64,000 bases of DNA from an uncultured Gammaproteobacteria bacterium (GCA_964536725.1 CAZHYJ010000001.1:53018-117017), one strand, 5' to 3'; positions 10,813 to 30,976 are shown, numbered from the stretch's first letter. Translations and numbers: made by a program. The notes: generated by a model not told the origin, from the letters alone.

Positions 10813-10814
10813 AT

Positions 10815-14785: not shown

Positions 14786-14803
14786 AAATTTGTATCAAGT
14801 ACT

Positions 14804-15353: not shown

Positions 15354-15749
15354 ATGAAAAAGGCCTATCTAACTTTTCTATTTTTATTCATTTTTCTTCC
15401 ATCGGTAACCTTGGCCCACCCCGGACGCACGGATTCTTCTGGTTGCCATACTTGTCGCACAAATTGTGCTAAATGGGGGCTTTCTACGGGCGAATATCAT
15501 TGTCATAGGGCAAAGACACTCCCGCAGCCAAAAGAGCCCATTAAAAGCCATTTTAGCGAGACTGGTGGGTATATCACGCCGGCACCGGAGTATAAACAAC
15601 CTGCCACTAATATTAAAAAGGCAGTTACGACAACCGCCGAAGTTAAGCCGGTAGTAAAACAGGTTGAAGTTAAATCAACTGCTAAACAAGCAGAGGTTAA
15701 AGTGAGCGAATCGTGGTTTACTAAGTTGGTTAGATTTTTGTTTAAATAA
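15354..15749 (+). CDS. Secreted protein with a Cys/His motif (..GRTDSSGCHTCRTNCAKWGLSTGEYHCH..) and a Lys/Val-rich repetitive tail
   Basis: Signal peptide; GxCHxC...YHCH metal-binding-like motif. Confidence 0.45.
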   Translation: MKKAYLTFLFLFIFLPSVTLAHPGRTDSSGCHTCRTNCAKWGLSTGEYHCHRAKTLPQPKEPIKSHFSETGGYITPAPEYKQPATNIKKAVTTTAEVKPVVKQVEVKSTAKQAEVKVSESWFTKLVRFLFK

Positions 15750-15750
15750 T

Positions 15751-16482: not shown

Positions 16483-16710
16483 TGATTAAAAGTTATCAAT
16501 ACAAAACTTCGTTTGAGTAGTGGTTATTTGGCACCATTTTTGCATGATGGATGATGGTGTTGCTTTAATGTAAAAAGGGTTGTATACTATAGATAGTGAA
16601 TATTCTTCAATTTTACATGATGTGTTATGTGGTGGGTTCTTTTTAGTGAGTAGGCTTTATAAATATTGACATTTTTTAGTAATTGTGTTTAAATGTTATA
16701 CTAAACTTAT

Positions 16711-17121
16711 ATGGGGAATTTGTCACCACTACAACATAGAATCAACGTAATATTAGCTAATCTCAGAGTGAAATTATTTCCGAGTAATAATTTGATAAAA
16801 GAGGTGCATGTTTGTTGTAACCAAAAATTACCAAAGGATGTTAAGGTGATTTGGAAAAGAGAAGATGATGGTTTTATAGTTGGCCATGTTAATGTAGATG
16901 GTTATGAGTTTACTACCCAAGGTAAAAATGCTAAAGATTTTATAAACATGGTAAATGATGCCATCTACGCTATTTACGAAATCCCCCCACAGTATATTCC
17001 TTATCTTGGTGGTTATCAAAGATATTTTCCTAAACCAGATCAGCTAGAACTGTTAAAAGATAAAAGCATTACAAATTCAACTCTTGGTTTCTATCAAAAC
17101 CAACATTGTCCAGCATCTTAA
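16711..17121 (+). CDS. hicB: HicB-like antitoxin (RNase H-like fold N-domain)
   Basis: ..WKREDDGFIVGHVNVDGYEFTTQGKNAKDFINMVNDAIYAIYE.. matches the HicB N-terminal pattern. It directly precedes the HicA-like gene. Confidence 0.5.
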   Translation: MGNLSPLQHRINVILANLRVKLFPSNNLIKEVHVCCNQKLPKDVKVIWKREDDGFIVGHVNVDGYEFTTQGKNAKDFINMVNDAIYAIYEIPPQYIPYLGGYQRYFPKPDQLELLKDKSITNSTLGFYQNQHCPAS

Positions 17122-17125
17122 GAAT

Positions 17126-17377
17126 ATGGGTGAATTTGCAGATGTAAAAAGAAAGAAAATTTTAAAGCTGCTGAAAAAGTTAGCTCAAATAAATGGCTTT
17201 ACAATCACTACTGGAGGTAATCATCAATGGGTAATTAGGTATACGAGCTGGCAGAGACCTTTCCCAATCCCATTTAAACAAAATAAGTTAAAAAAATGTT
17301 ATATTGAGGATCTTGCAAAGCTGGTCATTGCAACTGGAACATGCACAGAAGAAGTTTTTAAGGAATGGATAGGGTAA
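17126..17377 (+). CDS. hicA: HicA-like mRNA-interferase toxin
   Basis: ..KKILKLLKKLAQINGFTITTGGNHQWVIRYTSWQRPFPIPFKQNKL..DLAKL.. matches the HicA/YcfA pattern. The start is 4 nt after the hicB stop. Confidence 0.55.
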   Translation: MGEFADVKRKKILKLLKKLAQINGFTITTGGNHQWVIRYTSWQRPFPIPFKQNKLKKCYIEDLAKLVIATGTCTEEVFKEWIG

Positions 17378-17437
17378 AATAAAAATAAAATACACCTATT
17401 TTGTGAGTGTATTTTTTAATTTTGTATAAAAAATATA

Positions 17438-17590
17438 GTTCTAACATCCTCTACTAAGGAGCTCACTTTTCGTAAAACACCAAAACTCTGCTAAGTCTGG
17501 CAGAGTTTTTGGTTCTGATATTTGGCATAAGGTACATATATTTACTACCCCTTTGGAGAAAAAATGGCAAGAGTAGAACCGATTGAAAAA
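17438..17590 (+). repeat. Cassette-boundary repeat, copy 1 (long form): GTTCTAACATCCTCT..AAGGAGCTCA box, then hairpin AAAACTCTGC/GCAGAGTTTT with a T-run
   Basis: Near-identical over about 135 nt to the copy at 19598. It contains a tiny SD-ATG ORF (MARVEPIEK..). Confidence 0.6.
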
Positions 17591-17619
17591 GGATTATTTT
17601 TTTGGTATAGTTAATCATA

Positions 17620-18480
17620 ATGACTACTATTTTGAACCCCTGTTATTTTAACCTTTTTATGTATAGCATTCTTTTTCCGTTAATTTTGGTCTTTGTTATT
17701 TATTTTTTGGTAAAAGAATACAAAAGATACAGGTGGCCAAAGGTTTTTTCAAGAAAAATTACAAAAGAGCTGGGGAAACAGTTTGATAAATTGTGGAAAG
17801 CCAAAGATGACGGCCTCCTGGATTTGAAAATTTTTGATTCAGCCAAAAGAGTGTTTGAAAAATATTCTATTTACTTTTCTTCTTCTTTGGAATGGACACC
17901 ACTTCTTAAGAATGACGAAGGCCCAATCGACCCCGACCAGGCTGTGATTTTACGAAAGGAAATGGATAATTATTGGGTCATGGAAAAAAGTGTTATTTGC
18001 GATAATCATGTTTATAAATTTGAAGAAAAGCCCGATGGCGTTTTTATGCTTTTTAGGGATGGAGAATTAATAGGTGAAGTTAAAAGTGGAATTACGGATA
18101 GTAATAAAGTTTGTTTTATAAATCCACCAGACCCTAAATGTTTTTTTAATTCAACGCCATCTTGGGGAGAAGTTTTTGTCTGGAAAGATAACTATATTAT
18201 TAAAAGCTATACAGAGAATAGTGCCACCTTTAAAATCAATAATGACTTTTTAGAACTTCCAAAATCATGGGATGGAAAAATGAAAGCTCATGCTTTTGTT
18301 TTGGATAAAGATGGAGTTGTGGAATCTGCTGTTTTTGAAATCAAAGAAACATTAAATCCCCCGATTCCGCTGGATAATATTTATTGGTGCAAGTATCTTG
18401 GAAATGGAAAATTATCTCCACCAACATTGATTATTTCACAGGCTCATTTGGAAAGCGCGAGTATAAATGAGGTCAATTAA
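17620..18480 (+). CDS. Hypothetical protein with an N-terminal TM segment
   Basis: ORF only. Confidence 0.45.
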   Translation: MTTILNPCYFNLFMYSILFPLILVFVIYFLVKEYKRYRWPKVFSRKITKELGKQFDKLWKAKDDGLLDLKIFDSAKRVFEKYSIYFSSSLEWTPLLKNDEGPIDPDQAVILRKEMDNYWVMEKSVICDNHVYKFEEKPDGVFMLFRDGELIGEVKSGITDSNKVCFINPPDPKCFFNSTPSWGEVFVWKDNYIIKSYTENSATFKINNDFLELPKSWDGKMKAHAFVLDKDGVVESAVFEIKETLNPPIPLDNIYWCKYLGNGKLSPPTLIISQAHLESASINEVN

Positions 18481-18515
18481 ATTTATAGGTAGAAACCAAT
18501 TTATTTTGGTAAACC

Positions 18516-18577
18516 GTTCTAACATCCTCTATCAAGGAGCTCGCCGTAAACTTCGCTTAAACAGCGGGGTTTTTTGT
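18516..18577 (+). repeat. Cassette-boundary repeat, copy 2 (short form): conserved box, then G-U-containing hairpin AAACUUCGC/GCGGGGUUU with a T-run
   Basis: It shares the box and AAACTTCGCTTAAACAGCGGGGTT with the copies at 21124 and 22214. Confidence 0.6.
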
Positions 18578-18612
18578 TATACCCACAAGAAGAGTCGAAC
18601 TAAAACAAAAAA

Positions 18613-18638
18613 CACTCAGTAATTCTGAGAGTTTTTTA
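18613..18638 (+). terminator. Hairpin CTCAG-TAATT-CTGAG followed by AGTTTTTT
   Basis: Seen directly. Confidence 0.4.
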
Positions 18639-18790
18639 TTCCTCAATCACTTCTATAAATAAAAATGATAATCGGAGGGGAGGTCAAGACTTGCGTCACG
18701 ACCCCCGTTGCGAGTGCGTTCGTCAAACCTTGCGGTCTTCAGAACAGCACTGACACAGTTCCCCTCCGAGCGCGCCGGCCGTGTGACCGA

Positions 18791-19336
18791 CTACGCCGGC
18801 TTATCGGCCGACTTCTGCGCGCGCATGACCCGCACGTAGCCGAGCACGTCGGCCCAGCTCGAGACGAAGGCCGGGCCCATCACGTTCTCGTCGTGGACGA
18901 GGCCGTTCTGGGTCCAGAACTCGATCTCGGCGGCGTTGTTGTCGATGACGCCGGGGTCGTGGGGCTCGCGCGGGGCGCTGGGGCCGGGGAAGCTGGTGTA
19001 GAGCTGCCACGACGTGCCGTCGTCCGAGATGCCCGCGATGACCGTGAAGAGGGACGTCGGCTGCTTCTCGATCCCGACGAGGACGTGGCTCGGCACGTCG
19101 CGGCCCTTGCGGAACGCGAAGTACATCTGCCCGTTGTCCACGACGGGGAGGCAGCCGTTGAGGCCGACGATGCGCCCCATGTCGATGGTCGTCAGCAGGA
19201 ACCCCCCGCTCTCGGGCATGGTCACCATGCCGATCGCCTCCTCGAGGAGGGCCATCGCCTCGGGGTGCGCCTCGAGGTGCTTCTGGGTCTGGTCGGACAC
19301 GATGACCTTCTTGCCGCACTTGCTCTGGAATTCCAT
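18791..19336 (-). CDS. Hypothetical protein on a strongly GC-rich (foreign-composition) segment
   Basis: Of three overlapping long ORFs in this segment, only this frame has a balanced amino-acid composition. It also has a GGAGG Shine-Dalgarno 6 nt before the ATG. The segment, about 18.66-19.44 kb, is by eye roughly two-thirds G+C against AT-rich flanks. Confidence 0.55.
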   Translation of the reverse strand: MEFQSKCGKKVIVSDQTQKHLEAHPEAMALLEEAIGMVTMPESGGFLLTTIDMGRIVGLNGCLPVVDNGQMYFAFRKGRDVPSHVLVGIEKQPTSLFTVIAGISDDGTSWQLYTSFPGPSAPREPHDPGVIDNNAAEIEFWTQNGLVHDENVMGPAFVSSWADVLGYVRVMRAQKSADKPA

Positions 19337-19597
19337 CGGAAAACCTCCATTGTGGCCGGATTGGTTGCCGGCACTTGGTTCACTACCCGCCCTAAGAGCG
19401 CGGAATACTTAACGCCAGACTGACGTAAAATACACCGCGTTTTAGTGCAGATGATGTAAGGGAACTGTGTCTTGTAAAGAACAGCGTTCCATTATTAGGA
19501 ACCGAATGGTATAGCATAAAAAGGGATTTTTGTCAAGATTAAGGCTAAAAAATGGCTAATTTAACTGTTTGCACAAACTTCTCTATTTATCAAAGCA

Positions 19598-19731
19598 GTT
19601 CTAACATCATCTACTAAGCAGCTCAGATTTTCAAAAACCTCAAAACTCTGCTAAATCTGGCAGAGTTTTTGGTTCTGATATTTACTACCCCCTTTGGAGA
19701 AAAAATGGCAAGAGTAGAACCGATTGAAAAA
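19598..19731 (+). repeat. Cassette-boundary repeat, copy 3 (long form)
   Basis: Near-identical to copy 1, including the hairpin AAAACTCTGC/GCAGAGTTTT and the tiny ORF MARVEPIEK... Confidence 0.6.
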
Positions 19732-19892
19732 ACTGTAAATATCTGGTAATCTAATATGGTATATTATTTATATGGACAAACAAGAAGAGATTAAAAAAAT
19801 TAGAAAATTAGTTCAGAATAGAATTAAACTAAAAAAAGAACTGGCTAGCTTGCCAGAATTTAAGGAACGATTAAAAAAAGCAAAAGAAAAAT

Positions 19893-21068
19893 ATGAGGCC
19901 AAACAATGAGGGCATATCAATCGGTGCAACAGAACTTTCGCGTGAAAGGGTCCTTGAAATGTCACCAAAAGAATTGGTTGATTATTTTACTCACCTTGAA
20001 GAATCTGGGGGATTAGAAGCATACTTGCAAAGAGCTTCCAAGGATGATGCTTTGGTTGCTATGTTTAGTTATTGGGAAAAGTGGTTGACAAATGATCAGC
20101 GCGCGATGGTTGATGATATTGTAAGACAGAAAAAAGAGTTATATCCTGGAAACAGTGAGTCATTACCACTAGAATTGGAAAAAAGGTTTACTGGAGACGA
20201 ACTTGAAATTATTTTTTCAAATTTATTAGCTATACAACTTACTTTTGGTTGCTCCAAAGGTTGTCCGTTTTGCGGTTTTGATGCGGTTCCTGGCGTAAGA
20301 GAACACATACCTTATTCTCAATTGGCTAATATGTTTCAGAGGTTTGGTAAAGAGATTGGGGAAAGTAAGCCGTTGTTGTATTATGCTTCAGAACCAACCG
20401 ATTACCTCGACGAAGATAATACATACATGGATGTGCATCAGTTGGCAGTAGAGTATGCTAAGTATAAGCCACATGTAACGAGTAAAAATACTGATACTGA
20501 GTGGGTTGATTTTTTATCTAAAAAAGTAAATAAACCAAGAATAAGCTTGTTTGGTGTTCCAGAAGAATCAATATTAAATTTGGAAAGCTTGTCTGCAATC
20601 ACAGGTATTGAATTAGGGGGAAGACAAAAAAAACACTTTGAGGGTTTGGGAGTTTCAAGACAAAAGACAGAAGCGCCATTTAGTGTTGGGATAGGCTGTG
20701 GAAGTGGTATCTTAATTACACCACGAGGTTTGTATAATACTTTAACTTTATCAAGGACCAGCGATAGGTTTCCTCAGGGTATAGCAATTCAACCGTTTGA
20801 AAAAGAAGATGATAATTTTGATATAAAAATAGGGTCAGATGTTGTTGAAATAATGAAGAATACTTTAATAGGCAAGTTGCGTGCCATTACTGGTTTTTTC
20901 TTCGTAAGACAGCATGGTGTAAAAGTGTATGTAAAAGTTAATGACGCTGGTAAAGTTGTTGATTTTTACAAACAAAACGAACCTTGGAACCGGGCTGATC
21001 ACCAGCCATTTTTTGTGGAACTTGTTGATAGGCTCTTAGCGTCTGAGAAAGTAGCTGGTGTAAAATAA
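19893..21068 (+). CDS. Hypothetical protein with a CxxxCxxC motif (..TFGCSKGCPFCGFD..), possible radical SAM-like enzyme
   Basis: Only the CxxxCxxC motif was noted; the remaining radical-SAM signature was not checked. Confidence 0.4.
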   Translation: MRPNNEGISIGATELSRERVLEMSPKELVDYFTHLEESGGLEAYLQRASKDDALVAMFSYWEKWLTNDQRAMVDDIVRQKKELYPGNSESLPLELEKRFTGDELEIIFSNLLAIQLTFGCSKGCPFCGFDAVPGVREHIPYSQLANMFQRFGKEIGESKPLLYYASEPTDYLDEDNTYMDVHQLAVEYAKYKPHVTSKNTDTEWVDFLSKKVNKPRISLFGVPEESILNLESLSAITGIELGGRQKKHFEGLGVSRQKTEAPFSVGIGCGSGILITPRGLYNTLTLSRTSDRFPQGIAIQPFEKEDDNFDIKIGSDVVEIMKNTLIGKLRAITGFFFVRQHGVKVYVKVNDAGKVVDFYKQNEPWNRADHQPFFVELVDRLLASEKVAGVK

Positions 21069-21123
21069 ATAAATTTATTTTTATAAAAAATAGACAGATA
21101 ACAAATTAATTTATAATTAAATT

Positions 21124-21189
21124 GGTTCTAATATCCTCTGCCAAGGAGCTCAGATAAAAACTTCGCTTAAACAGTGGAGTTTTTTCTTA
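21124..21189 (+). repeat. Cassette-boundary repeat, copy 4 (short form)
   Basis: GGTTCTAATATCCTCTGCCAAGGAGCTCAGATAAAAACTTCGCTTAAACAGTGGAGTTTTTT. Confidence 0.6.
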
Positions 21190-21327
21190 ATATGGTATTA
21201 GAGAAGAGTCATATTTTATTGCTTTAAACCGTGAAAAAAGTAGTTTTTCTATATATTTTCACGGTTATATTGACAAAATAGTGAAAATATGCTATAATTG
21301 TATTAGATTCTACATTTAAGTTAGTAT

Positions 21328-22200
21328 ATGGCTAAAATATCTAATGTTTTCAATAAAATAAACGACTTACGTAAACGTTATTATTTAGCGGCTGTTGGCA
21401 GACAATCACTTTTGAAATTAATTAGCGAAACTGAAGTAGCTGAACAAGTTTACAATTCTAATGCTATAGAAAACAGCACTTTGTCCCTTGAAGAAACAGA
21501 AAAAATTCTACTGCAAATAGATCTGGACAGATATATTTCTGAGCGAGAAATTTTTGAAGCTAAAAATTTAGCACGTGTGGTCTCATATATAGATACCAAA
21601 GCTAAAGAAAAAGAACTCGATTTGGATGTTATTTTGATGTTACACAAAATGTTAATTAGTAATATTAGAGAAGACGTAGCGGGACGTTTTAGAAAAGAAA
21701 ATGAGTGGGTGCGAGTTGGTAATCATATAGCAGTTGATCCTAAAGAAATAATTGGTCGCTTAGAAAAAATGCTAGCTGAGTACAATGCCGAGAGCCAAGA
21801 AAATGTTATAAAAAGAATAGCACGTTTGCATTTAGCTTTTGAATACGTTCATCCTTTTGTCGATGGTAATGGTCGAATTGGTAGAGTGTTAAATAATTAT
21901 TTATTGATCAGAGAAGGGTTTGTGCCGATAAATATTAAATTTATTGATAGAAAAATGTATTATGAAGCATTCAAAGAGTTTGACACCAATGAAGCGACGG
22001 GTGTAATGGAGGAGATCGTCGGCCGTGCTTTGACCAATAGTTATCATAAGAGGTTGGCATATTTAGAGAGTAAAAATATTATTACCCTTAAAGAGTACGC
22101 ACAAAAAAATAAAATATCACATTCAAACGCTATCAACAAGGCTACTCGTCAAACTATTGAAGCTTTTTTGGAAAAGGGAATTTGGAAAATTGGAGAATAA
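21328..22200 (+). CDS. Fic/Doc-family protein (putative AMPylase)
   Basis: The canonical Fic motif HPFVDGNGRIGR is present. Confidence 0.8.
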   Translation: MAKISNVFNKINDLRKRYYLAAVGRQSLLKLISETEVAEQVYNSNAIENSTLSLEETEKILLQIDLDRYISEREIFEAKNLARVVSYIDTKAKEKELDLDVILMLHKMLISNIREDVAGRFRKENEWVRVGNHIAVDPKEIIGRLEKMLAEYNAESQENVIKRIARLHLAFEYVHPFVDGNGRIGRVLNNYLLIREGFVPINIKFIDRKMYYEAFKEFDTNEATGVMEEIVGRALTNSYHKRLAYLESKNIITLKEYAQKNKISHSNAINKATRQTIEAFLEKGIWKIGE

Positions 22201-22213
22201 TTTGTTGTAAGCA

Positions 22214-22278
22214 GGTTCTAACATCCTCCACCAAGCAGCTCACCGTAAAACTTCGCTTAAACAGCGGGGTTCTTTGTT
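22214..22278 (+). repeat. Cassette-boundary repeat, copy 5 (short form)
   Basis: GGTTCTAACATCCTCCACCAAGCAGCTCACCGTAAAACTTCGCTTAAACAGCGGGGTTCTTTG. Confidence 0.6.
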
Positions 22279-22692: not shown

Positions 22693-24441
22693 TTATTTAA
22701 AAAGCGATATAATAAAACAGTTTTTGGTAACGTGGGTTGACAAAGTATGAAATGCGAGTATAATAGGGGATAGATTACATCGCGGGGTAGAGCAACCAGG
22801 CAGCTCGCAAGGCCCATAACCTTGAGGTTCCCGGTTCAAATCCGGGCCCCGCAACAATGTTGGACTCTGGTCATATAAAGTGGCCAGAGTCCTTTTTGTT
22901 AAAGGGTCTTCCGGAGGTTCGAAGTTTTTTTTAATCTCTTTTACTTCTTTGGACGCCTCTTCTAAAAGCACGAGCGGTTTTTGCGCTTGGAAAAGCACTT
23001 TTCCGTCTTTAAGTAATAGGTTCGAACCGAGACCCGACAGAATACTGCGTTTTGTAAATATATTATTTTCTTGGAACTTTTCTCTGGCAATTTGGGCGAA
23101 TGAGAAAATCTTTCCCGCCCTTTCTTTAGACTTATCCTCTTGGTTATTTTTACCAGATAATATATATTCCAAATTTTCTTTCTCTTTATTAATTTCAGCC
23201 TTTTTTTCTTTGGCTACCGTTTCAGATATCTCGCCGTTAATACGCATGTCCACTATAGTATCTAGTTTTTTGAGACAAGATGCTAGGGATTTTTCTAAGT
23301 TGGATACTATAATATTTTGATCGTTTTCTTTTTGTTGAGTTTCGTTTTTTAATTTTTCCAAAGCCCAAACACAGAAATCATTCGGTATCTCTATTCTATT
23401 CAGGATGTCCGTAATTTGCTCCTCGATTTCTTTTTCTTGGACATACCTCTGTGAGCAGTTGGGATTCTTTTGTTTGGTACAATGATAATATGTATATACA
23501 TGGGTGTTACCATTTTTTTGTTTCTTAACTCTTAATTCAGCGGTTATCATTGCTCCACATTCGCCACAACGTAATGGCCCCCGAAAAGCGAAATCGAATT
23601 TTTTCGGTCGCGGTTTATTTCGACCAGATATAATATCTTGTATTTGATCAAATTCTTCTTTGGTTATCATCGCGGGATGCTTTCCGTCATACCAGTTTCC
23701 ACTACCTTGGGGGTATTCATATCTACCATAATAGAACGGCAGAGTGAACATGCGGTAAAAAGTACTACGACCGATCGGTTTTCCGTTATCCATACGGAAT
23801 CCCCACTTATGAGTTATTACACGCCATAATTCTTGGACAGTGTACTGTCCAGTTAACATCTCTCGGAACGCTCTTTGGATGATGGGGAAGCGCTCTTTAT
23901 CTATCAAGATACACCTTGATCCGCCGGTGAGATTTGGAGTGTTTAAGTACCCTGTGGGGGCGTGTGAGGGATATATACCCATTTCTGCTTTAGTACGTAA
24001 TCCTCTGGCCGTATTGTGGCGTAGGTCGATAATGTATTGGTTAGCCATGCCTAACTCTACAAACATCATTAGGACGTTGTCGGTGGGGTAATAATCGCGA
24101 TCATAAGCCCGTATGTGTTGGATAATACCTTGTTGGAGCATCCAGTTGATAATACCGCCGTCAACAGGGTTTCTGGCCAAACGATCTAGTTTCCAACAGA
24201 CGATGCCGTTGGCCTCACCTTTTTTTATTCGTTCCACCATTTCATTAAACTCAGGGCGTGCACCAGGTTCTTTGGCCGAGTGGGCTTCGGTGAATGTCTT
24301 AACGACTTTAAGGCCGTCACGTCCAACGAGTTTTTTCATTTCACTAATTTGGGAATCGATAGAGAGGGCTTGTCGTTCTTCGCCCTCACTACTTTTTCTG
24401 CAGTAGAGAAAATATCTTAGTGGTTTTTTGTTGCTTCGCAT
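22693..24441 (-). CDS. Large serine recombinase, paralog of the one at 7895-9483
   Basis: ..YCRKSSEGEERQALSIDSQ.., ..IVCWKLDRLARNPVDGG.., and a Cys cluster (..CGECGAM...HCTKQKNPNC..). The ORF is open from 24483; the likely start is MRSNKKP at 24441. The C-terminal roughly 55 codons read through the tRNA-fMet antisense. Confidence 0.8.
   Translation of the reverse strand: MRSNKKPLRYFLYCRKSSEGEERQALSIDSQISEMKKLVGRDGLKVVKTFTEAHSAKEPGARPEFNEMVERIKKGEANGIVCWKLDRLARNPVDGGIINWMLQQGIIQHIRAYDRDYYPTDNVLMMFVELGMANQYIIDLRHNTARGLRTKAEMGIYPSHAPTGYLNTPNLTGGSRCILIDKERFPIIQRAFREMLTGQYTVQELWRVITHKWGFRMDNGKPIGRSTFYRMFTLPFYYGRYEYPQGSGNWYDGKHPAMITKEEFDQIQDIISGRNKPRPKKFDFAFRGPLRCGECGAMITAELRVKKQKNGNTHVYTYYHCTKQKNPNCSQRYVQEKEIEEQITDILNRIEIPNDFCVWALEKLKNETQQKENDQNIIVSNLEKSLASCLKKLDTIVDMRINGEISETVAKEKKAEINKEKENLEYILSGKNNQEDKSKERAGKIFSFAQIAREKFQENNIFTKRSILSGLGSNLLLKDGKVLFQAQKPLVLLEEASKEVKEIKKNFEPPEDPLTKRTLATLYDQSPTLLRGPDLNREPQGYGPCELPGCSTPRCNLSPIILAFHTLSTHVTKNCFIISLFK
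22781..22854 (+). tRNA. Initiator tRNA-fMet (anticodon CAT)
   Basis: Near-identical to E. coli tRNA-fMet: CGCGGGG acceptor with a C1-A72 mismatch; anticodon loop CCCATAA; T-arm CCCGG-TTCAAAT-CCGGG. It lies entirely antisense inside the 3' end of the recombinase-2 ORF. Confidence 0.8.
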
Positions 24442-24512
24442 ATAAGAATAATTAAAAATTCCATTAAACCACGGTAATAACATGCCTTACAATATGGCGT
24501 CAATAATTATAA

Positions 24513-26060
24513 TTAAAATTGAATATCCTCCGCATTAAGAGAAGCTTCGTCTCCAGCGTCTCCGCCGTCGGTATTTCTAATCAGCTTTATATGTATAATC
24601 CGCTCTCTTTTTTCTTTGATTCTCCATATTTTAATACCCGCATCCTCGAGATTGTTTTTGAGGATATTTAATGACTTGCTTAATTTTGCCGCGGACTTAG
24701 GCCAAGCTTTTTCATGGTTCGTATCAGTTTTTAATTCCGCAGCCTTCTCGTTAAGGCAGTTCAACAAACTTGACGCCGTACCGATCCATTCGTTTGTGTC
24801 TTCTATAAAACGCACTAGTATGTTAGCTAACAAACTACCGTCAATAACTTCTTCATTTTGGCTTTTTTGGTTATTCGCATAAGCTGTCATAAAAGCTCCC
24901 TGTTCATATCCCAAGGCCTCGGCGATTGCGCAACCCCAACTGGCGAAGTCTGCCATTCTAGGCATTTTTGGTAATCTAATAGTTGGTTTAATCAGCAATG
25001 CTTTGGAGATCGTGTCAAAAACTCCACCCAGTATGGAGGGTTTTAACTCGGTAAGTTCGGTATATAATTCTTGTTCTGATCTTCGCCCTGCTCCATCATC
25101 AGAAATTCTGTCTAATTCGACAATGATGCTACGTTCCATGAGATCGGGTTTCCCAATAACCAAATTGATTCCATTGATCATGACGCATCGCTTGATTTTG
25201 AATATAAAATCATCATCATTAGTAAACAGTGACCGTTTTGCAAATCCCGCTCCAGTTATAGCCCGACACAGTGTGTCTGACGAGCTTTCAGATAAGTAGC
25301 TAACATTATCAAAACAGAGCAACCAGCTGTGAGCTAACATTTGTACAAGCTCTACTTCTTTATTTGGAAAACTAATTGCGTCTAATTGAGAAGGATCAAT
25401 TAAATCTTTTAATATCTTACACAAAGTAGATTTAGAAGATCCTTGCGGACCATGTATACACAGAATGGGGTGGGGGAAGTCAGGGATGAAACATGATACC
25501 ACCCAGACCAACAAGAGTAGCTGCTTTTCTGGATCAGAAACATTTATAAATTTAAGCAATTCTTTTATATCTCCTTTTTTAATTGGGATTGTTTGTTGTT
25601 TTTGGTGGTTAAAATTTCGGAACATGATTGGTGGTTGTTCAACAATCTGCCACCCATTTCTATCGGTTTTAATAGCAGATCCGTTGCCTATGTCATACCA
25701 CAGGTTATTGTCACCCCATGCAATTCGAATATTAAGGGGGATAGTACCGTTATCAGAGCAGGCCCGAGCTTCTAGGATTGAGATGATATTCGATCTGACT
25801 TCACCTCTAGGAGCCTTGTGCATTTTGTCCCAAATTAATTTAGACATCCAACGATTAAATCGTGTGCTTCCAATCCGCATAGTTTGGGAACCACTTCCCT
25901 GGGGGATGTTAGCGTAAGGTTCTCCCAATTCGTCGTGAAAAAGTTCTACACCACAATTTTCAATCAGTTTTAAAATCTTCGAGACCTCTTGATTGTTTTC
26001 TGGAAATTGTTGTTTTTCCTCAACCTCAATTAATTTTTTTTCTAGAATATCGTTTTCCAT
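24513..26060 (-). CDS. P4-family phage/plasmid primase-helicase-like protein (SF3 / VirE-like P-loop NTPase)
   Basis: Walker A ..ILCIHGPQGSSKSTLCKIL.. and a Walker B-like ..LLCFDNV... The size and layout fit the primase C-terminal/D5 family. Confidence 0.6.
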   Translation of the reverse strand: MENDILEKKLIEVEEKQQFPENNQEVSKILKLIENCGVELFHDELGEPYANIPQGSGSQTMRIGSTRFNRWMSKLIWDKMHKAPRGEVRSNIISILEARACSDNGTIPLNIRIAWGDNNLWYDIGNGSAIKTDRNGWQIVEQPPIMFRNFNHQKQQTIPIKKGDIKELLKFINVSDPEKQLLLLVWVVSCFIPDFPHPILCIHGPQGSSKSTLCKILKDLIDPSQLDAISFPNKEVELVQMLAHSWLLCFDNVSYLSESSSDTLCRAITGAGFAKRSLFTNDDDFIFKIKRCVMINGINLVIGKPDLMERSIIVELDRISDDGAGRRSEQELYTELTELKPSILGGVFDTISKALLIKPTIRLPKMPRMADFASWGCAIAEALGYEQGAFMTAYANNQKSQNEEVIDGSLLANILVRFIEDTNEWIGTASSLLNCLNEKAAELKTDTNHEKAWPKSAAKLSKSLNILKNNLEDAGIKIWRIKEKRERIIHIKLIRNTDGGDAGDEASLNAEDIQF

Positions 26061-26063
26061 ATA

Positions 26064-26687
26064 TTAATAGTTATTGATTAAATTTTTTACTGCTTCCTTA
26101 AAGTTGTAATTATAGAGTAATTGAATAAGCTTTATACTATTCCCACCTTGTTGGCAACCAAAGCACTTAAAAGTATTTGTTTTGGTGAATACCGTGAAGG
26201 ATGGGGTTTTTTCTTTGTGTAGAGGACACAGGCACACTAGGTTCCTGCTCGATTTCCTAAATGGCCCAGGCAACAAAGCTTGTATTGGGACAGTGTTAGC
26301 TTGGTCGATTTGTTCTTGTGTTATTAAACCATCTCTTGGTTTTTTACCATGAAGAAAATTATGTTGACGATGGAGACGGAACAAATGCTTATCAATTTCA
26401 ACCAGTTCCGGAATAAATAAATATTTTACGCAGTCTCTGTTGAACTGTTTAGAAAAAGCGTTCATCGGGGACTCATTAATGCGAACGAGTATTTCATTAA
26501 TGTGCTTTGTTAATAATATTCGTTTTTCTTTCCACTCATTAATTTTTAATTGGATGACCGCTCGCGCTTCTGGAAACCAGCTGAACAACTCCGCGTCTGT
26601 GGGGTGGGGCAGCATCTCTCGTTCCTTTTCGATATCTAATGCGTTAAACAAGAATTCTATTTCTTCATTTGTTGGCAGATTATCCAT
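26064..26687 (-). CDS. DnaG-type CHC2 zinc-finger (primase zinc-binding domain) protein
   Basis: ..CLCPLHKEKTPSFTVFTKTNTFKCFGCQQGGNSIKL.. matches the zf-CHC2 pattern CPxHxEKTPSFxV...CFGCxxGG. Confidence 0.6.
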   Translation of the reverse strand: MDNLPTNEEIEFLFNALDIEKEREMLPHPTDAELFSWFPEARAVIQLKINEWKEKRILLTKHINEILVRINESPMNAFSKQFNRDCVKYLFIPELVEIDKHLFRLHRQHNFLHGKKPRDGLITQEQIDQANTVPIQALLPGPFRKSSRNLVCLCPLHKEKTPSFTVFTKTNTFKCFGCQQGGNSIKLIQLLYNYNFKEAVKNLINNY

Positions 26688-26926
26688 ATTATTTGTTTTT
26701 AAAGTAAGTTAAAGCCTGGTCGATTTTGTCGCCATATATTAAGTCCATAAACTGAATAAACTTGGTCGCTAGCTCAGAAGCCTCGGAAGATGTGATTGGC
26801 GAACCAAAGTGTTTCAGATATAGATTTTGGAATTCAGTTGTTTCTTTCTCGGGAAACATAAGAGCCACGGGTAACGTGGCTCAATTATAAAATAATCGTT
26901 TTGGTTTGTATAAGTAAAAAGCGATA

Positions 26927-27715
26927 TCACTTTTTGTCGTATTTTTTTGATAAGGAGATGATTTTGCCGATGCCGCCAATATCAACTGGTGGCCAGCCTT
27001 TTCCTTCAGAAATAAGGTTCAGCATTTCGCTGATTTTTTTATATGGACGACCCCTTTTTTGTATTATGAATTCGTCTCTTTCGGAAATTTTTTCATTTTT
27101 TGGACGGATATGATGAATAAGGGTATCTTTTTTCCGATAATGGCTTTGGTATAATTTGATAATTTTTTCTTTCTTTTGTAAGAAATTTTTTATGTCATTT
27201 ATCGATGCGTAGGGGCTTATTCTTATGGCAATTGGGAACTCTAAATCAATGTCGTGGTCTATTTTTTGTTCGAGTCGTTTTAGTGTTTTGTCTGAAGGGT
27301 AAGTATATTTTTTTTGCATCAATAAATCATCTAATCTACAAAGGTCATAATCATAAAGCCAATGGTGTAGATCAGAATCGGTGTGATTGTATATAATAAA
27401 ATCCCACAGAATTTCTTTCCAACACTGGTTGTAAAGATAATATTTCTTACAAAGTTTGTCGATGTCTTTGATTAAATTATCTAAGCTTTTGAGAGTTTCC
27501 TTGTGTTGCCAGCCGTCTGGTAATATTGGATAATGGTAATTTTCTTTTTTAGTATATCCTGTCAGTGGTATCTTATACTTTTTTCTCAATTTTTTTGCAA
27601 TATTTTGGAATGAATCCATTTTTTTTATATCGCACCAGTAAGCATACAACCATTCGAAACCGTTGGTTGTGTTCTTTTTAGATTCTAATAGTACTTCATC
27701 TTTTTCTTTGTTCAT
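26927..27715 (-). CDS. Hypothetical protein
   Basis: ORF only. Confidence 0.4.
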   Translation of the reverse strand: MNKEKDEVLLESKKNTTNGFEWLYAYWCDIKKMDSFQNIAKKLRKKYKIPLTGYTKKENYHYPILPDGWQHKETLKSLDNLIKDIDKLCKKYYLYNQCWKEILWDFIIYNHTDSDLHHWLYDYDLCRLDDLLMQKKYTYPSDKTLKRLEQKIDHDIDLEFPIAIRISPYASINDIKNFLQKKEKIIKLYQSHYRKKDTLIHHIRPKNEKISERDEFIIQKRGRPYKKISEMLNLISEGKGWPPVDIGGIGKIISLSKKYDKK

Positions 27716-27901
27716 ATTGTGAATTAAACTACATAATTGACGCAGTATATATCGGTATGATAAACTAAAAAGCGTGAAACAACAATACTTATAAGTCCGA
27801 AGCTGAAAAAGCTATATTTTTAGCTTCTTGTGTATTGGAACGGGCGTTCCGATCAACACAAGAAGCATCTTCGGACGCTGATTGTTGTTTCACAGGTCGG
27901 G

Positions 27902-27926
27902 CGTCCGTTTTTGTTTTTTAAATTAT
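27902..27926 (+). repeat. Direct repeat CGTCCGTTTTTGTTTT(T)TAAATTAT, copy 1, immediately upstream of a small membrane-protein gene
   Basis: Second copy at 28164-28187. Each lies about 27 nt before an ATG. Confidence 0.5.
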
Positions 27927-27930
27927 TCAT

Positions 27931-28158
27931 ATGCGTTGGATAAAAGAAAACTGGTTCAAAATTTTAGCATCCGTACTTTTGGTTTGGGTAACGTTTTTTT
28001 GGACATACACAAAAATAAAAGACAATGACAGGCTGATAGAGATAAGCTTTATTTCTGTTTGTGCCGAACTTGGAGAGCAGGATGCCGCAGATTGTGCCAA
28101 GAATATTTTTAGATCCAACTATTTTTCAAGATTTCGTTATCCGCAACTTTTTAAATAA
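27931..28158 (+). CDS. Small membrane protein (75 aa)
   Basis: One TM helix. Preceded by the duplicated 25-nt element. Confidence 0.4.
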   Translation: MRWIKENWFKILASVLLVWVTFFWTYTKIKDNDRLIEISFISVCAELGEQDAADCAKNIFRSNYFSRFRYPQLFK

Positions 28159-28163
28159 TTAAT

Positions 28164-28187
28164 CGTCCGTTTTTGTTTTTAAATTAT
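28164..28187 (+). repeat. Direct repeat copy 2 (CGTCCGTTTTTGTTTTTAAATTAT)
   Basis: See the copy at 27902. Confidence 0.5.
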
Positions 28188-28192
28188 AGAGT

Positions 28193-28495
28193 ATGTGGGA
28201 ATTTAAATGGGGGTTGTTTAAGAGTCATACTTGGCCAAAATGGGAGAAGGGGTTAAAATTCTTTGCGATTTGTTTGGTCGTTGCGTTGCTTTTAAGTTTT
28301 TTTTCTACCAGTGAGGAAGATTATATTTGTGAATCAGAACCACTTTTTGGTCAGAACTGCGGATTGGGCAAATCTTTTAACGGTGATTGGGCCGGTGTTT
28401 TGGTCAAGGGTGTTGGCCTTTGTATGTTTGGTACTTTTTCGCAGATTTATCTGAACAGTTTTAAAAAAGACAAAAATAAGGAATTGAGACCATAG
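28193..28495 (+). CDS. Small membrane protein (100 aa)
   Basis: One TM helix. Preceded by the duplicated element. Confidence 0.4.
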   Translation: MWEFKWGLFKSHTWPKWEKGLKFFAICLVVALLLSFFSTSEEDYICESEPLFGQNCGLGKSFNGDWAGVLVKGVGLCMFGTFSQIYLNSFKKDKNKELRP

Positions 28496-28645
28496 CATAT
28501 TCCCTTGCCCTCCCACGGTATCTTTCTTGCGCCAGAGAGTATCTGGGGTTGTCTAAATAGCATGAACACCGCAAAGAGCAAAAGAAAAACAAAGGAAACG
28601 GTAGAGACGATTAAGACGGTATAAAAACAAATTTTATATATTTAT

Positions 28646-29098
28646 ATGGAAATCACTATATCTAAAAAAAATCTAATAGTTGTACTCTGTACAATAATAA
28701 TCGCATTGGTTGTCGGTGTCGGTTATTTTTTGAGGACGAGTCGGTCTAATGATAGGGTTGATAGAGAAGTTGAAGAAATGTTCAGGAGAATAGAGAGCGG
28801 GGAGAAGACCAAAGGAGAGAAGCTCTTGCTGAACTACTATAATAAAAAAAATCAACATGATATTCTAATATCAGAAGATTACGCTTCGGTTGTGCTTAAC
28901 ACCGAAAAGTGTTTTATGGTTGACCCGAAAGATCCAGAATGTTGGTTTGCTCGCGCGGTGGCTTTAGATCAGCTTGGAAAATCAGAGGAGGCACTGACGG
29001 CATTATGGAATGTGGCTGAATATGCCACCGGCACACGTAAAGATCAAGCTTTAAGTATTCTCGCCTCAAGACTAATGGCATCATCTACTAAGGAATAA
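28646..29098 (+). CDS. Membrane-anchored protein with a TPR-like C-terminal region
   Basis: N-terminal TM; ..CWFARAVALDQLGKSEEALTALWNVAEYA.. looks helical-repeat-like. Confidence 0.4.
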   Translation: MEITISKKNLIVVLCTIIIALVVGVGYFLRTSRSNDRVDREVEEMFRRIESGEKTKGEKLLLNYYNKKNQHDILISEDYASVVLNTEKCFMVDPKDPECWFARAVALDQLGKSEEALTALWNVAEYATGTRKDQALSILASRLMASSTKE

Positions 29099-29255
29099 AT
29101 TAGGATGTGACATTTCGGACAATTCGGACAGTTTGGACGAGCTCGGGTCATACTGAGCGGCTATTCAAGAGTTTATTTGATTACTTAGTTGTTTACACGT
29201 TAAGCAATAACAGGCCTGTTAAGGGTGTTTTTTTAATTGACTTTAAAAAAAACAA

Positions 29256-30851
29256 ATGATAAAGTATATTTTAATATTATTTATTTTAATTATGATACGA
29301 GCAGAGGAGTACAAAGATCTTATTGAGTCGTTAACGATAGGCGCGAATGTTGCCGAACAGGATTCTTTTTTGGAAGCAGCCAAAGTAGAGACGCCAATAC
29401 TGAACGATTTTCTTGCGGATAAAGTGGATTTTATCTTAGGATCAAAGGGGTCTGGCAAAACCTCTATATTTAGGTTGACTCAAGCATTAAGAGACCCTCT
29501 ATTATCTAAGGCACGTCTTCATTTAATTACGGGGGTAGAGCCTCAGGGCAATGCCGTTTTTGATTTATTTAAAAGAGACTTTGAATCTTTTTCAGAGTCG
29601 GAATTTGAAAATTTTTGGAAAATTTATTTTATTAATTTGGTTTATAATGATTTCATAACTAATGATTCGTTTACTGCGCAATTAAAATCCTGTAAATCAG
29701 AAATAGAGGAACTGATAAAAGAATGTGCGAGAATAGGGGTGCCTCAGATTACCCGTAATTCTAGCCTGTCTGAGATAGTGCAAAAAACAATTGCTGCGAT
29801 AAATTCAAAAAGAATCAAGAAAATAAAAGTAAGTGCAATTACTGATGCTAACCAGCCTTCGTTGTTTACATCAACAGCCGAAATGGAGTTTGAACACAAA
29901 GACAACAATGTTTACAAAGAAAAAAATGATCTTCCTGTTTATGTAAATAAGATAGGACTTATTCTGGAGGGGTTACTTAAAAAAACCAACATCAGAATCT
30001 GGGTCCTTTTAGATCGCCTCGATGTTGTGTTCGAGCATGGTAGTCGGCTCGAATTTTTTGCGTTAAGGGGATTGTTAAGAGCGTATGAGAGTTTTCAAGT
30101 CAGTGCGGGTAGTCCGTTTAAATTTTTAAGAATTAAGATTTTTTTGCGTGATGATATCTTTGAGTTTCTTTTAAATCCAAATCAATTCAAGAGAATCTCA
30201 ACTTACAAGGTCGCTAAAAGCTTACCGGCTTTAACCCATATAACTTCTAGAGCAACTAAAACACCCCTGAGATGGACTAAAGGAGAAATTCAGCAACTAA
30301 TGCTTAAACGGTTATTTATCTCTCCCTTGTTGCGGACTTATTTTAAAACGAGTATTGCGGAGTTGAATAATGAAAAAACTAGAAATGATGTTTGGGATAC
30401 GTTGTTTGGTAAAAAAATTGAACCAGGAGATAAAAAACCCGATTCCTTATCTTGGATTTACGCGAGATTAAGTGATGCACGACAAGTTACCCCACGATCA
30501 GCAATAGATTTTTTAGAGGGTGTTATATTCGAACAAAATAGGTTATTTAAGCTCGACAGTATAGAACAAGAGAGGTTTTTTTCTCCTTCCGCCGTTAAAC
30601 ATGGAATAGTTACAGCATCTAAAGAAAAGTACGGCAAGGAAACAAAAAATGAATACATAAAGATTGTTCCATATATAGAAAAAATAAGGGGGAGTAGCGC
30701 TCAGATAAGTAATCCAGATAAAATATTTGGAGATAATTATCTTGAGATTATGACAGAATTGGAAAAAATTGGCTTATTGTATAAGGTTGGTGATAATTAC
30801 AAAGTTTCATTTATTTTTCGTGCCGCTTTGGATGTTCACCCGCAATTTTAA
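29256..30851 (+). CDS. Uncharacterised P-loop NTPase (Walker A ..ILGSKGSGKTSIF.., Walker B ..IWVLLDRLD..)
   Basis: Motifs are seen directly; the family was not recognised. Possible defence-type ATPase given the accessory context. Confidence 0.5.
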   Translation: MIKYILILFILIMIRAEEYKDLIESLTIGANVAEQDSFLEAAKVETPILNDFLADKVDFILGSKGSGKTSIFRLTQALRDPLLSKARLHLITGVEPQGNAVFDLFKRDFESFSESEFENFWKIYFINLVYNDFITNDSFTAQLKSCKSEIEELIKECARIGVPQITRNSSLSEIVQKTIAAINSKRIKKIKVSAITDANQPSLFTSTAEMEFEHKDNNVYKEKNDLPVYVNKIGLILEGLLKKTNIRIWVLLDRLDVVFEHGSRLEFFALRGLLRAYESFQVSAGSPFKFLRIKIFLRDDIFEFLLNPNQFKRISTYKVAKSLPALTHITSRATKTPLRWTKGEIQQLMLKRLFISPLLRTYFKTSIAELNNEKTRNDVWDTLFGKKIEPGDKKPDSLSWIYARLSDARQVTPRSAIDFLEGVIFEQNRLFKLDSIEQERFFSPSAVKHGIVTASKEKYGKETKNEYIKIVPYIEKIRGSSAQISNPDKIFGDNYLEIMTELEKIGLLYKVGDNYKVSFIFRAALDVHPQF

Positions 30852-30949
30852 GTAATCGGCCGAAGTCTCCATTTTAGTAGAGTTAAAAGAATTTATCTTA
30901 ATCGATCTCTGAAGCAAGTTCGAATGTCATCTAACACCCGCAACAAATA

Positions 30950-30976
30950 AAAAATGACCTAATGGCCATTTTTTAT
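30950..30976. terminator. Bidirectional hairpin terminator between convergent genes (AAAAATGACC-TAAT-GGCCATTTTT)
   Basis: Seen directly. A/T runs lie on both sides. Confidence 0.45.

What the first reader, a model, noticed from the sequence alone, without database searches (positions are those of the whole stretch)
22693..27900. Second serine-recombinase element at the initiator tRNA, carrying a primase module and an ORF that reads through the tRNA antisense
The paralogous recombinase has its last roughly 55 codons laid over tRNA-fMet on the opposite strand. Integration into, or domestication next to, the sole initiator tRNA is notable. It is followed by a P4-type primase/helicase (Walker A GPQGSSKST) and a DnaG-type CHC2 zinc-finger protein. 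This is a self-replicating integrative-element architecture, as in satellite or plasmid-like elements. The right end is hairpin-dense (27.75-27.90 kb, including the palindrome TTCTTGTGTATTGGAACGGGCGTTCCGATCAACACAAGAA).
Basis: partly seen in the sequence, partly recalled or inferred. Interest (0 to 1): 0.55.

Follow-up and report, generated by a model that had tools for sequence, protein, structure and literature searches.

The report
Serine-recombinase mobile element in initiator tRNA
An 8.1-kb mobile DNA element sits at the very end of the initiator tRNA gene, absent from a near-identical strain, and its recombinase belongs to a large, apparently undescribed group that targets tRNA genes, probably by recognising the T-loop sequence.

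Summary
The sequence features are real, but the element is larger than reported. It is an 8,089-bp insertion (window 22858-30946) flanked by a 10-bp direct repeat, CCCGCAACAA, which is tRNA-fMet nt 67-73 plus CAA. A 99.3-99.5% identical strain carries the empty site, and assembly-graph breakpoints show both alleles in two samples.

The 596-aa ORF is a by-product of integration. attP lies inside the recombinase gene, so the excised form would encode 559 aa ending VLDDIRTCFRDRLR, and that coding remnant sits at the far end (30893-30936).

This holds across the family. In 48 of 80 relatives a convergent tRNA lies in a fixed register at the gene end, and a circular relative keeps the native tail. 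The tail motif D-x-R-T is a T-loop-like DNA motif placed 5 bp farther from the crossover than the tRNA's own T-loop. That matches the known attP/attB zinc-ribbon-motif offset.

The "primase module" is a D5-type SF3 helicase plus a lone CHC2 zinc finger, with no catalytic primase domain found. The hairpins are internal: a conserved, promoter-driven structured RNA in the slot where relatives carry LOOT RNA. No circular junction was found.

The parts
22737..22764 (+). Host promoter of tRNA-fMet (TTGACA-16-TATAAT, 12/12)
   Evidence: also present in the empty-site contig L005
22781..22855 (+). tRNA-fMet (anticodon CAT). All mature nucleotides are host-derived or identical in both alleles. The T-loop GTTCAAAT lies at 22834-22841 and is the proposed zinc-ribbon-domain (ZD) motif of the attB left arm.
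22848..22857 (.). attL core CCCGCAACAA (tRNA nt 67-73 + CAA). The crossover lies within it and is predicted at 22852-22853.
22858..30946 (.). The integrative element, 8,089 bp (equivalently 22848-30936)
   Evidence: Logan contig L001 equals 22828-30966. Flank contigs end at 22857 and 30937. Empty-site contig L005 joins 22857 to 30947.
22862..22892 (+). Element-supplied intrinsic terminator for the tRNA (13-bp stem followed by TTTTT), lying inside the recombinase's C-terminal coding region
   Evidence: conserved in L003
22693..24483 (-). Large serine recombinase ORF as integrated (596 aa). The true start is probably M15 (24441). Family homology ends at 22849. Nt 22693-22848 are a read-through tail over the tRNA and its promoter.
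24513..26060 (-). D5-type SF3 helicase, 515 aa (Walker A GPQGSSKST), without a primase domain
26064..26687 (-). 207-aa protein with a C-terminal DnaG-type CHC2 zinc finger only; N-terminal 140 aa unassigned
26689..26868 (-). 59-aa protein, conserved in L003, L113 and some other recombinase loci; function unknown
26927..27715 (-). 262-aa protein of a Patescibacteria (CPR)-restricted family that recurs next to these recombinases; helix-turn-helix-type (HTH) DNA-binding fold hits only
27737..27766 (+). Promoter (TTGACG-18-TAAACT with an upstream TG) driving the structured RNA and cargo operon; conserved in L003
27774..27893 (+). Conserved nested-stem structured element (three-way junction), most likely an RNA on the + strand; no Rfam family matches
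27931..29098 (+). Cargo genes: 75-aa and 100-aa small hydrophobic proteins and a 150-aa TPR protein (p75 and TPR are shared with L003)
29256..30851 (+). Cargo gene: 531-aa Sll1717-family P-loop ATPase (weak match to PADLOC PDC-M28C); absent from L003
30893..30936 (-). Displaced 3' end of the recombinase gene (VLDDIRTCFRDRLR + stop), in frame with the core. It is also the attP left arm, carrying the T-loop-like GTTCGAAT at 30918-30925.
30937..30946 (.). attR core CCCGCAACAA

Best explanation
This is an 8.09-kb integrative, probably self-replicating, non-viral element of a Patescibacteria-type genome. Its own large serine recombinase inserted it at the extreme 3' end of the tRNA-fMet gene.

Shown:
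- The boundaries are known to the base.
- There is a 10-bp core repeat.
- Occupied and empty alleles coexist.
- The mature tRNA sequence is unchanged.
- The element supplies a new terminator for the tRNA.

Inferred with good support:
- attP lies inside the recombinase ORF, about 14 codons before its stop.
- Integration therefore detaches the native C-terminal tail, whose coding remnant is left at the far end, and fuses the ORF to the tRNA antisense. That produces the 596-aa read-through.
- The recombinase's zinc-ribbon domain (ZD) uses the tRNA T-loop sequence (nt 53-61) as the ZD motif of the attB left arm.
- attP carries the same motif 5 bp farther out, and the crossover falls at about tRNA nt 71-72.
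- This lets the clade move among tRNA genes.

Inferred only:
- The helicase, zinc-finger protein and helix-turn-helix (HTH) protein replicate the excised circle.
- The promoter-driven structured RNA acts in replication or in control of the cargo operon.
For: Boundaries and mobility:
- Logan contig L001 equals window 22828-30966. Flank contigs end at 22857 and 30937. All are exactly k-1 = 30 nt from the points where the occupied and empty alleles diverge (k = 31).
- Contig L005 from another sample is the empty site.

Recombinase:
- It has the three large-serine-recombinase domains. The R29/S31 catalytic-motif positions and four zinc-ribbon cysteines are invariant columns of alignment A1.
- The attP-form ORF is 559 aa and ends VLDDIRTCFRDRLR. 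This matches the native tails of relatives.
- A 12.8-kb circular contig, L151, carries the native tail.
- In six other integrated loci (L051, L055, L060, L054, L066, L039) the far end carries a short repeat of the tRNA 3' end, followed in frame by the native tail.

Family survey:
- 48 of 80 loci have a convergent tRNA at the recombinase gene end (nine tRNA types). The register is -6 to -8 nt in 45 of the 48.
- The GAAC of the motif lies 5 nt farther out in native tails. S of D-S-N is at +8 in 39/41 sequences; R of x-R-T is at +10 in 20/21. Direct att comparisons agree.
- This matches the ZD motif at positions 16-24 in attP and 11-19 in attB (PMC3783163).

Replication module:
- The helicase model (pLDDT 86) matches the ASFV PrimPol, NrS-1, SaPI5 and poxvirus D5/E5 helicases.
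- The module helicase -> recombinase -> convergent tRNA recurs in metagenomes.
Against: - No attP junction or circular form of this particular element was found. The left end of L001 argues against abundant circles in that sample.
- The polymorphism could reflect strains that were never invaded rather than excision.
- An unbiased 9-mer test puts the +5 shift first or tied first in only 7 of 11 att comparisons.
- The right-hand arms (B', P') show no clear inverted copy of the motif (and reading of the sequence).
- No catalytic primase or polymerase domain was identified, so autonomous replication is unproven.
- Some relatives with native tails lie in apparently chromosomal contigs with no tRNA nearby (L110, L067).
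Confidence: 0.8

Rival explanations
1. The C-terminal tail swap is a regulatory switch. The native tail (L-x-D-x-V/I-R-T...) would be needed for, or would tune, integration, stability or directionality. The integrated form, with a junk or truncated tail, would then behave differently, for example by being locked in or degraded. This would be analogous to integration-dependent gene remodelling in other elements.
For: - The tail motif is conserved across distant relatives.
- Integration always removes it.
- The circular L151 keeps it.
Against: - The conservation is equally explained at the DNA level, because the motif is the attP-arm T-loop-like sequence read in frame.
- Residues beyond the motif are poorly conserved.
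Confidence: 0.25
2. The element is a phage satellite or defective prophage (P4- or PICI-like) that depends on a helper phage for transfer, rather than a plasmid-like element.
For: - It combines an integrase with an SF3 helicase at a tRNA, as P4 does. One of the closest solved folds to the helicase is the SaPI5 primase-helicase.
- Island 1 next door carries a small-terminase-like HTH gene.
Against: - No capsid, terminase, portal or capsid-redirecting genes lie in 22858-30946.
- Only 1 relative of the recombinase was found among 2.9 million IMG/VR contigs, against at least 580 in genome contigs.
Confidence: 0.15
3. The element is a fixed, decaying remnant. The recombinase would have been inactivated by loss of its tail, and the empty site would simply be the ancestral allele in a sister strain.
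For: - No circular junction was found.
- The neighbouring island 1 contains recombinase-less remnants.
Against: - All ORFs are intact, and the R29/S31 catalytic-motif positions and four zinc-ribbon cysteines are conserved.
- Both alleles coexist in two samples at strain-level identity.
- The far-end remnant is still in frame and intact.
Confidence: 0.12
4. The 51-codon extension over the tRNA encodes a functional, selected peptide, i.e. a true overlapping gene.
For: The read-through recurs in L003 (577 aa) and L113 (564 aa) at tRNA-Met.
Against: - The extension length in relatives varies from 9 to 191 nt and depends only on where a stop happens to fall in each tRNA.
- The peptides are simply tRNA antisense translations.
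- Conservation follows from the tRNA itself.
Confidence: 0.03

Closest known systems
Phage and element large serine recombinases (phiC31, Bxb1, A118/LI integrase, SCCmec Ccr, XisF)
   Same: - Same domain architecture, and an att core of only 10 bp.
- An attP/attB pair whose shared outer motif is offset by 5 bp, as in the LI integrase model.
   Different: - The target is the 3' end of tRNA genes. A 2020 survey stated that such use by serine integrases had 'not been reported previously' (PMC7192596).
- attP lies inside the recombinase's own ORF.
- The proposed outer motif is the universal T-loop.
- The hosts are mainly Patescibacteria and other uncultured phyla.
Tycheposons of Prochlorococcus (Hackl et al., bioRxiv 10.1101/2020.12.28.424599)
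   Same: - tRNA-proximal integrative elements carrying an integrase, primase/helicase-type replication genes and cargo.
- Successive insertions build tandem islands. The same pattern is seen here in island 1.
   Different: - 910 of 937 tycheposon-type elements use tyrosine recombinases, with partial-tRNA repeats of about 40 nt.
- Here a serine recombinase is used with 4-10-bp cores, and the host phylum is different.
Satellite phage P4 and SaPI/PICI elements
   Same: An integrase plus a D5-type SF3 replicative helicase inserted next to or in a tRNA gene. The helicase fold matches the SaPI5 primase-helicase.
   Different: - P4 uses a tyrosine integrase, and its alpha protein contains the primase domain (own knowledge).
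- Here there is no primase catalytic domain and no capsid-hijacking genes.
SSV-type archaeal integrases and integration-dependent immunity of mycobacteriophage BPs (own knowledge, not checked here)
   Same: attP lies inside a gene of the element, so integration changes the gene product.
   Different: - Those are tyrosine recombinase systems.
- SSV splits the integrase gene into two large parts, and BPs truncates the repressor.
- Here only the last ~14 codons of a serine recombinase are exchanged.
LOOT RNA (Rfam RF03000)
   Same: A promoter-proximal structured RNA occupying the slot between the recombinase/replication module and the cargo genes in relatives and in island 1.
   Different: The element's own RNA at 27774-27893 has a different topology and gives no LOOT match at E <= 5.

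Membership tests
Large serine recombinase (serine integrase) | N-terminal resolvase catalytic domain with the Y-x-R-x-S motif | tested here: met
   PF00239 E = 1e-18. Y27, R29 and S31 are invariant columns in the 22-sequence alignment.
Large serine recombinase (serine integrase) | Recombinase domain plus a zinc-ribbon domain with four Cys | tested here: met
   PF07508 and PF13408. C306, C309, C335 and C343 are invariant.
Large serine recombinase (serine integrase) | Short att sites that share a small core, with the outer (ZD) motif 5 bp closer to the centre in attB than in attP | tested here: met
   10-bp core. The T-loop-like motif is 6 nt from the core in attB and 11 nt in attP. Family register. 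The unbiased test is only moderate.
Large serine recombinase (serine integrase) | Catalysis of attP x attB integration, with excision through a directionality factor | not testable with these tools
   Only the occupied/empty polymorphism was seen. No directionality factor was identified.
D5/P4-alpha-type SF3 replicative helicase | SF3 ATPase core (Walker A, Walker B, motif C) with a D5-type fold | tested here: met
   G204, Q206, G207, K210, D251, N252 and N296-N299 are invariant. Foldseek E = 6e-11 to 1e-7 to ASFV PrimPol, NrS-1 C-terminal region, SaPI5 primase-helicase and poxvirus D5/E5. No Pfam hit by sequence.
P4-alpha / Prim-Pol primase-helicase fusion | A primase catalytic domain (AEP Prim-Pol or TOPRIM) on the same polypeptide | tested here: not met
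   The 515-aa protein corresponds only to the helicase part of homologues that carry PF09250/PF08708 N-terminally. No Pfam, PHROG or NCBIfam primase hit.
DnaG-type primase | CHC2 zinc-binding domain | tested here: met
   PF01807 E = 6e-21, residues 143-206.
DnaG-type primase | TOPRIM / RNA-polymerase catalytic domain | tested here: not met
   TIGR01391 matches only profile positions 27-89 of 414. The N-terminal 140 aa have no family.
Tycheposon-like tRNA-island element | Site-specific integrase plus replication genes plus cargo, at a tRNA, with tandem accretion | tested here: met
   The family was defined in cyanobacteria, so this is a functional resemblance and not shown descent.
Prophage / phage satellite | Virion, packaging or capsid-redirecting genes | tested here: not met
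   No such PHROG or Pfam hits in 22858-30946. The recombinase clade is nearly absent from IMG/VR.
LOOT RNA (RF03000) | Match to the Rfam covariance model | tested here: not met
   No hit at E <= 5 for 26600-29300. Island 1 and relatives do match.
Bacterial initiator tRNA | CAT anticodon, 1:72 mismatch, A11:U24, G:C pairs at 29-31:39-41 | tested here: met
   C1.A72 and A11:U24 are present, and two of the three G:C pairs (29:41 is A:U), read. The L003 orthologue has all three.

The most novel reading that the evidence does not exclude
A very large clade of large serine recombinases (more than 5,500 detected relatives, mostly in Patescibacteria) would have evolved to use the universally conserved tRNA T-loop sequence as the zinc-ribbon-domain motif of attB. 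Its attP would be embedded in its own coding sequence. One protein scaffold could then retarget to many different tRNA genes by changing only the inner, acceptor-stem contacts, and each integration would rewrite the enzyme's C-terminus. These elements would also carry the orphan LOOT RNA or an analogue as a core component.
Probability: 0.5. Interest if true: 0.8.

Novelty: new variant of a known kind. Interest (0 to 1): 0.68.

Why it matters
Serine integrases are major genome-engineering tools. They have been regarded as not targeting tRNA genes: the 2020 TIGER survey found 14 of 297 candidates and called such use previously unreported (PMC7192596).

A clade that reads the T-loop and acceptor end would explain how such enzymes change target. 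It would offer natural landing sites that are conserved in every genome. It would also give a sequence-only way to tell integrated copies from free ones, by their D-S-N versus R-T tails.

For Patescibacteria, whose mobile elements are poorly known, it defines a common class of small integrative elements and the islands they build. It also gives the orphan LOOT RNA a genomic context.

For annotation, it shows that long recombinase ORFs running through tRNA genes are artefacts of integration.

Tried and rejected
- A generic repeat search in 22.6-32 kb gave no convincing att repeat. The 10-bp core is not significant on its own, since 39 of 100 shuffles give at least 2 matches. It became convincing only with the contig breakpoints and the empty site.
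- The idea that Logan contig L001 is a circle was rejected, because it has no terminal overlap of 15 nt or more.
- An attP-junction pattern search of JGI metagenomes found nothing.
- A 16-mer from the structured RNA found only unrelated IMG/VR contigs. An nhmmer profile of that RNA found no further copies in about 190 loci.
- Rfam at permissive thresholds gave nothing for 26.6-29.3 kb.
- The far end of the related element in L003 could not be found, because the contig ends first. The far end in L113 was not found either.
- A dyad-symmetry search of attP and attB gave only weak symmetry, 10/20 around CA in the core.
- PDB sequence searches for the helicase gave P-loop noise only.


Full report
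**Observation**

- ORF 22693-24483(-), 596 aa, carries the Resolvase, Recombinase and Zn_ribbon_recom domains. It is 40% identical over residues 12-539 to a 548-aa paralogue at 7895-9541(-), whose stop overlaps tRNA-Gly(GCC) by 12 nt.
- tRNA-Met(CAT) lies at 22781-22855(+). Reading the sequence shows C1.A72, A11:U24 and G30:C40/G31:C39, so it is an initiator-type tRNA. Pair 29:41 is A:U.
- Homology of the recombinase to its relatives stops at residue ~545, which is nt 22849. The last ~51 codons are therefore antisense to the tRNA and its promoter.
- Upstream on the minus strand lie a 515-aa Walker-A protein, a 207-aa protein whose C-terminus is a CHC2 zinc finger (E = 6e-21), a 59-aa ORF and a 262-aa ORF.
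- The interval 27.77-27.90 kb folds far better than shuffled sequence (z = -6.2 on both strands).

**True extent and mobility**

A Logan assembly contig that carries the same helicase, L001 (found in three samples), equals window 22828-30966 at 100% identity.

The only second near-copy of the tRNA 3' end in the window is at 30936-30946. It gives a 10-bp direct repeat, CCCGCAACAA, at 22848-22857 and 30937-30946.

Logan contigs come from a k = 31 de Bruijn graph (PMC12424806). If occupied and empty alleles coexist, contigs should break exactly 30 nt beyond the points where the alleles diverge. That predicts breaks at 22828 and 30966 for the element contig, 22857 for the left flank and 30937 for the right flank. 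All four predictions are met (L001, L007, L004, L006). An attP junction would instead have made L001 start at 22848.

Contig L005, from a different run (SRR16642447), joins 22857 directly to 30947 with a single core. It is 99.3-99.5% identical to the window flanks and has an intact tRNA.

The element is therefore an 8,089-bp insertion at 22858-30946. The hairpin region is internal.

In the occupied allele the tRNA sequence is unchanged through nt 73 and the CAA trailer. A strong terminator hairpin (22862-22892), encoded within the recombinase's 3' coding region, replaces the host terminator.

No circular junction was found in JGI metagenomes.

**Why the ORF runs through the tRNA**

Joining the two ends as in attP gives a 559-aa ORF ending ...SPTLLR|VLDDIRTCFRDRLR*. 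It would be about 545 aa from the likely start at M15. The last 14 codons and the stop lie at 30936-30893 on the minus strand, in frame with the core. attP therefore lies inside the gene.

The same holds across the family.
- Among 80 loci from species-representative genomes, 48 have a convergent tRNA at the end of recombinase homology: Asn 13, His 13, Lys 8, Gln 7, Ser 3, and Trp, Ile, Ala and Leu one each. The register is fixed at -6 to -8 nt in 45 of the 48.
- Nine more contigs end at that point.
- The ORF/tRNA overlap ranges from 9 to 191 nt, depending on where a stop happens to fall.
- Of the 120 closest protein clusters, 44 end in tRNA-antisense peptides (LLRGWDSNPRP...), and 56 are short or other, most of them stopping a codon or two after LLR. 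Twenty have a 'native' tail, such as LLRLCDNVRTC....
- In six other integrated loci (L051, L055, L060, L054, L066, L039) the far end of a 5-11-kb element carries a short repeat of the tRNA end followed in frame by a native-type tail.
- A circular 12.8-kb contig, L151 (97-nt terminal overlap), carries a related helicase and a recombinase with the native tail ...PTLLAWQDGFRTVNW....

**Proposed recognition mechanism**

The native tail motif D-[V/I]-R-T is the in-frame reading of ATTCGAAC or GTTAGAAC, which is the antisense of a T-loop-like GTTCGAAT. In integrated copies the tRNA's real T-loop antisense, GATTCGAAC, reads D-S-N.

In the window, GTTCAAAT (22834-22841) ends 6 nt before the core in attB. 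GTTCGAAT (30918-30925) ends 11 nt before the core in the attP left arm. That is a shift of 5 bp. The same shift is seen for tRNA-Gly (10 nt versus 15 nt) and for the Lys, Ile, His and Asn elements.

At family scale, S of D-S-N sits at +8 from a conserved proline in 39 of 41 sequences. R of R-T sits at +10 in 20 of 21. This again places GAAC 5 nt farther out.

That is the offset described for the zinc-ribbon-domain (ZD) motif of serine integrases: positions 16-24 in attP and 11-19 in attB (PMC3783163). With the T-loop at positions 11-19, the crossover falls at tRNA nt 71-72, which is 22852-22853. This lies inside the observed cores for Met, Gly, Lys, Ile and Asn.

Three caveats apply.
- An unbiased 9-mer test ranks +5 first or tied first in only 7 of 11 att pairs.
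- The right-hand arms show no clear inverted motif.
- Nothing has been tested biochemically.

One consequence follows: the conservation of the tail may be selected at the DNA level only. A regulatory 'tail swap' is therefore possible but unproven.

**The replication module**

The 515-aa protein has no Pfam, PHROG or NCBIfam family. It has more than 600 homologues, mostly in Patescibacteria, and most of them carry an N-terminal Prim-Pol (PF09250) with or without PriCT_1.

An AlphaFold model (pLDDT 86) matches the helicase parts of ASFV PrimPol, phage NrS-1 polymerase, the SaPI5 primase-helicase and poxvirus D5/E5. It is therefore a D5-type SF3 helicase without a primase domain.

The CHC2 protein has only the zinc-binding domain. 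The 262-aa protein (pLDDT 88) gives only helix-turn-helix-type (HTH) matches.

The pairing of a CHC2 protein with a helicase recurs in L003, L113, L114-L116, L163, L164, L181 and L190. Autonomous replication is thus plausible, but the priming activity is unidentified.

**The hairpin region**

Positions 27774-27893 form a nested three-way structure. It lies directly downstream of a promoter with an extended -10 (27737-27766) and upstream of the plus-strand cargo operon.

It is more conserved between the window and L003 than the flanking genes are. The alignment shows 85% column identity, three compensatory pairs, and G.U pairs that fit only the + strand.

It matches no Rfam family. In relatives the same slot holds LOOT RNA (RF03000): the tRNA-Met element L113, the circular L151, and island 1 of this window.

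**Cargo**

The cargo consists of two small hydrophobic proteins, a TPR protein and an Sll1717-family P-loop ATPase.

**Relatives at the same site**

L003 (76% nucleotide identity across the module) and L113 (recombinase 64%, helicase 55%) carry the same module ending over tRNA-Met, and L113 has the same core.

In L003, tRNA-Gly(GCC) lies 72 nt upstream of tRNA-Met. The window's 14-kb island 1 is therefore an insertion between the two tRNAs.

**Comparison and novelty**

The enzyme is a member of the large serine recombinases. The element works like tycheposons and like P4/PICI-type integrative replicons, but it is not a member of those groups (see the membership table).

A 2020 survey stated that serine-integrase use of t(m)RNA genes had not been reported before (PMC7192596). 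Tycheposon-type elements include 27 with such recombinases. My literature searches found no description of this clade, of attP inside a serine recombinase ORF, or of T-loop recognition. The searched library is incomplete.

The clade is almost absent from IMG/VR, with one hit.

**Verdict**

The more interesting content is the family-level mechanism.

Noticed in passing
window 7905-22241 (sites at 17461-17464, 18539-18542, 19621-19624, 22238-22241): Island 1 at tRNA-Gly(GCC) is a tandem accretion. It consists of a 9.56-kb element carrying the first recombinase, followed by three recombinase-less cassettes of 1,078, 1,082 and 2,617 bp. Each cassette ends in a homologous attR-like site. The antisense of each site reads the recombinase native tail (S-S/C-L-V/I-E/D-D-V-R-T) next to the core GCTC (tRNA-Gly nt 71-74).
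   Followed up: partly
window 11972-12115 (+); L110 9821-9940 and 15613-15729; L054 7386-7505; L055 6248-6363; L113 4960-5084; L151 4988-5106; L117 (two copies); L019; L044; L015; L120: The orphan Rfam family LOOT RNA (RF03000; 64-89 bits against a gathering score of 46) is a recurrent component of these recombinase/helicase elements. It usually lies divergent from the 262-aa-family gene. An nhmmer profile flags it in about 20 of 160 related loci.
   Followed up: partly
window 19893-22200: The last cassette of island 1 carries a radical-SAM protein and a Fic protein. The Fic protein matches PADLOC candidate defence families (PDC-S04 at E = 4e-34, and SoFic).
   Followed up: no
window 7901-7907 versus 22238-22244, and L003 9806-9815: The occupied tRNA-Gly(GCC) allele encodes ...GCTCCA, with the CCA completed by element sequence. 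The attR-like sites and the L003 orthologue read GCTCAC and GCTCAA. Integration may therefore change whether the CCA end is genome-encoded.
   Followed up: no
L003 7996-10051; protein P0121: Gene callers handle these recombinases inconsistently. JGI called no gene at all over the recombinase in L003, where it overlaps the tRNA. NCBI annotated the full 596-aa read-through ORF for this window.
   Followed up: no
L110 11808-13445 and 20292 onward; L067 (CP064994.1): Some relatives with an intact native tail lie in apparently chromosomal contigs with no tRNA nearby. In L110 they occur as two recombinases with two LOOT copies. The integrated-versus-free scheme does not explain them.
   Followed up: no
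L117 3569-3675: A SAM riboswitch lies between two LOOT RNAs on a helicase-bearing contig, possibly as cargo regulation inside an element.
   Followed up: no
window 27903-27920 and 28165-28182: A duplicated 18-nt segment, GTCCGTTTTTGTTTTT(T/A)A, followed by AAATTAT, precedes the start codons of both small hydrophobic cargo genes.
   Followed up: no
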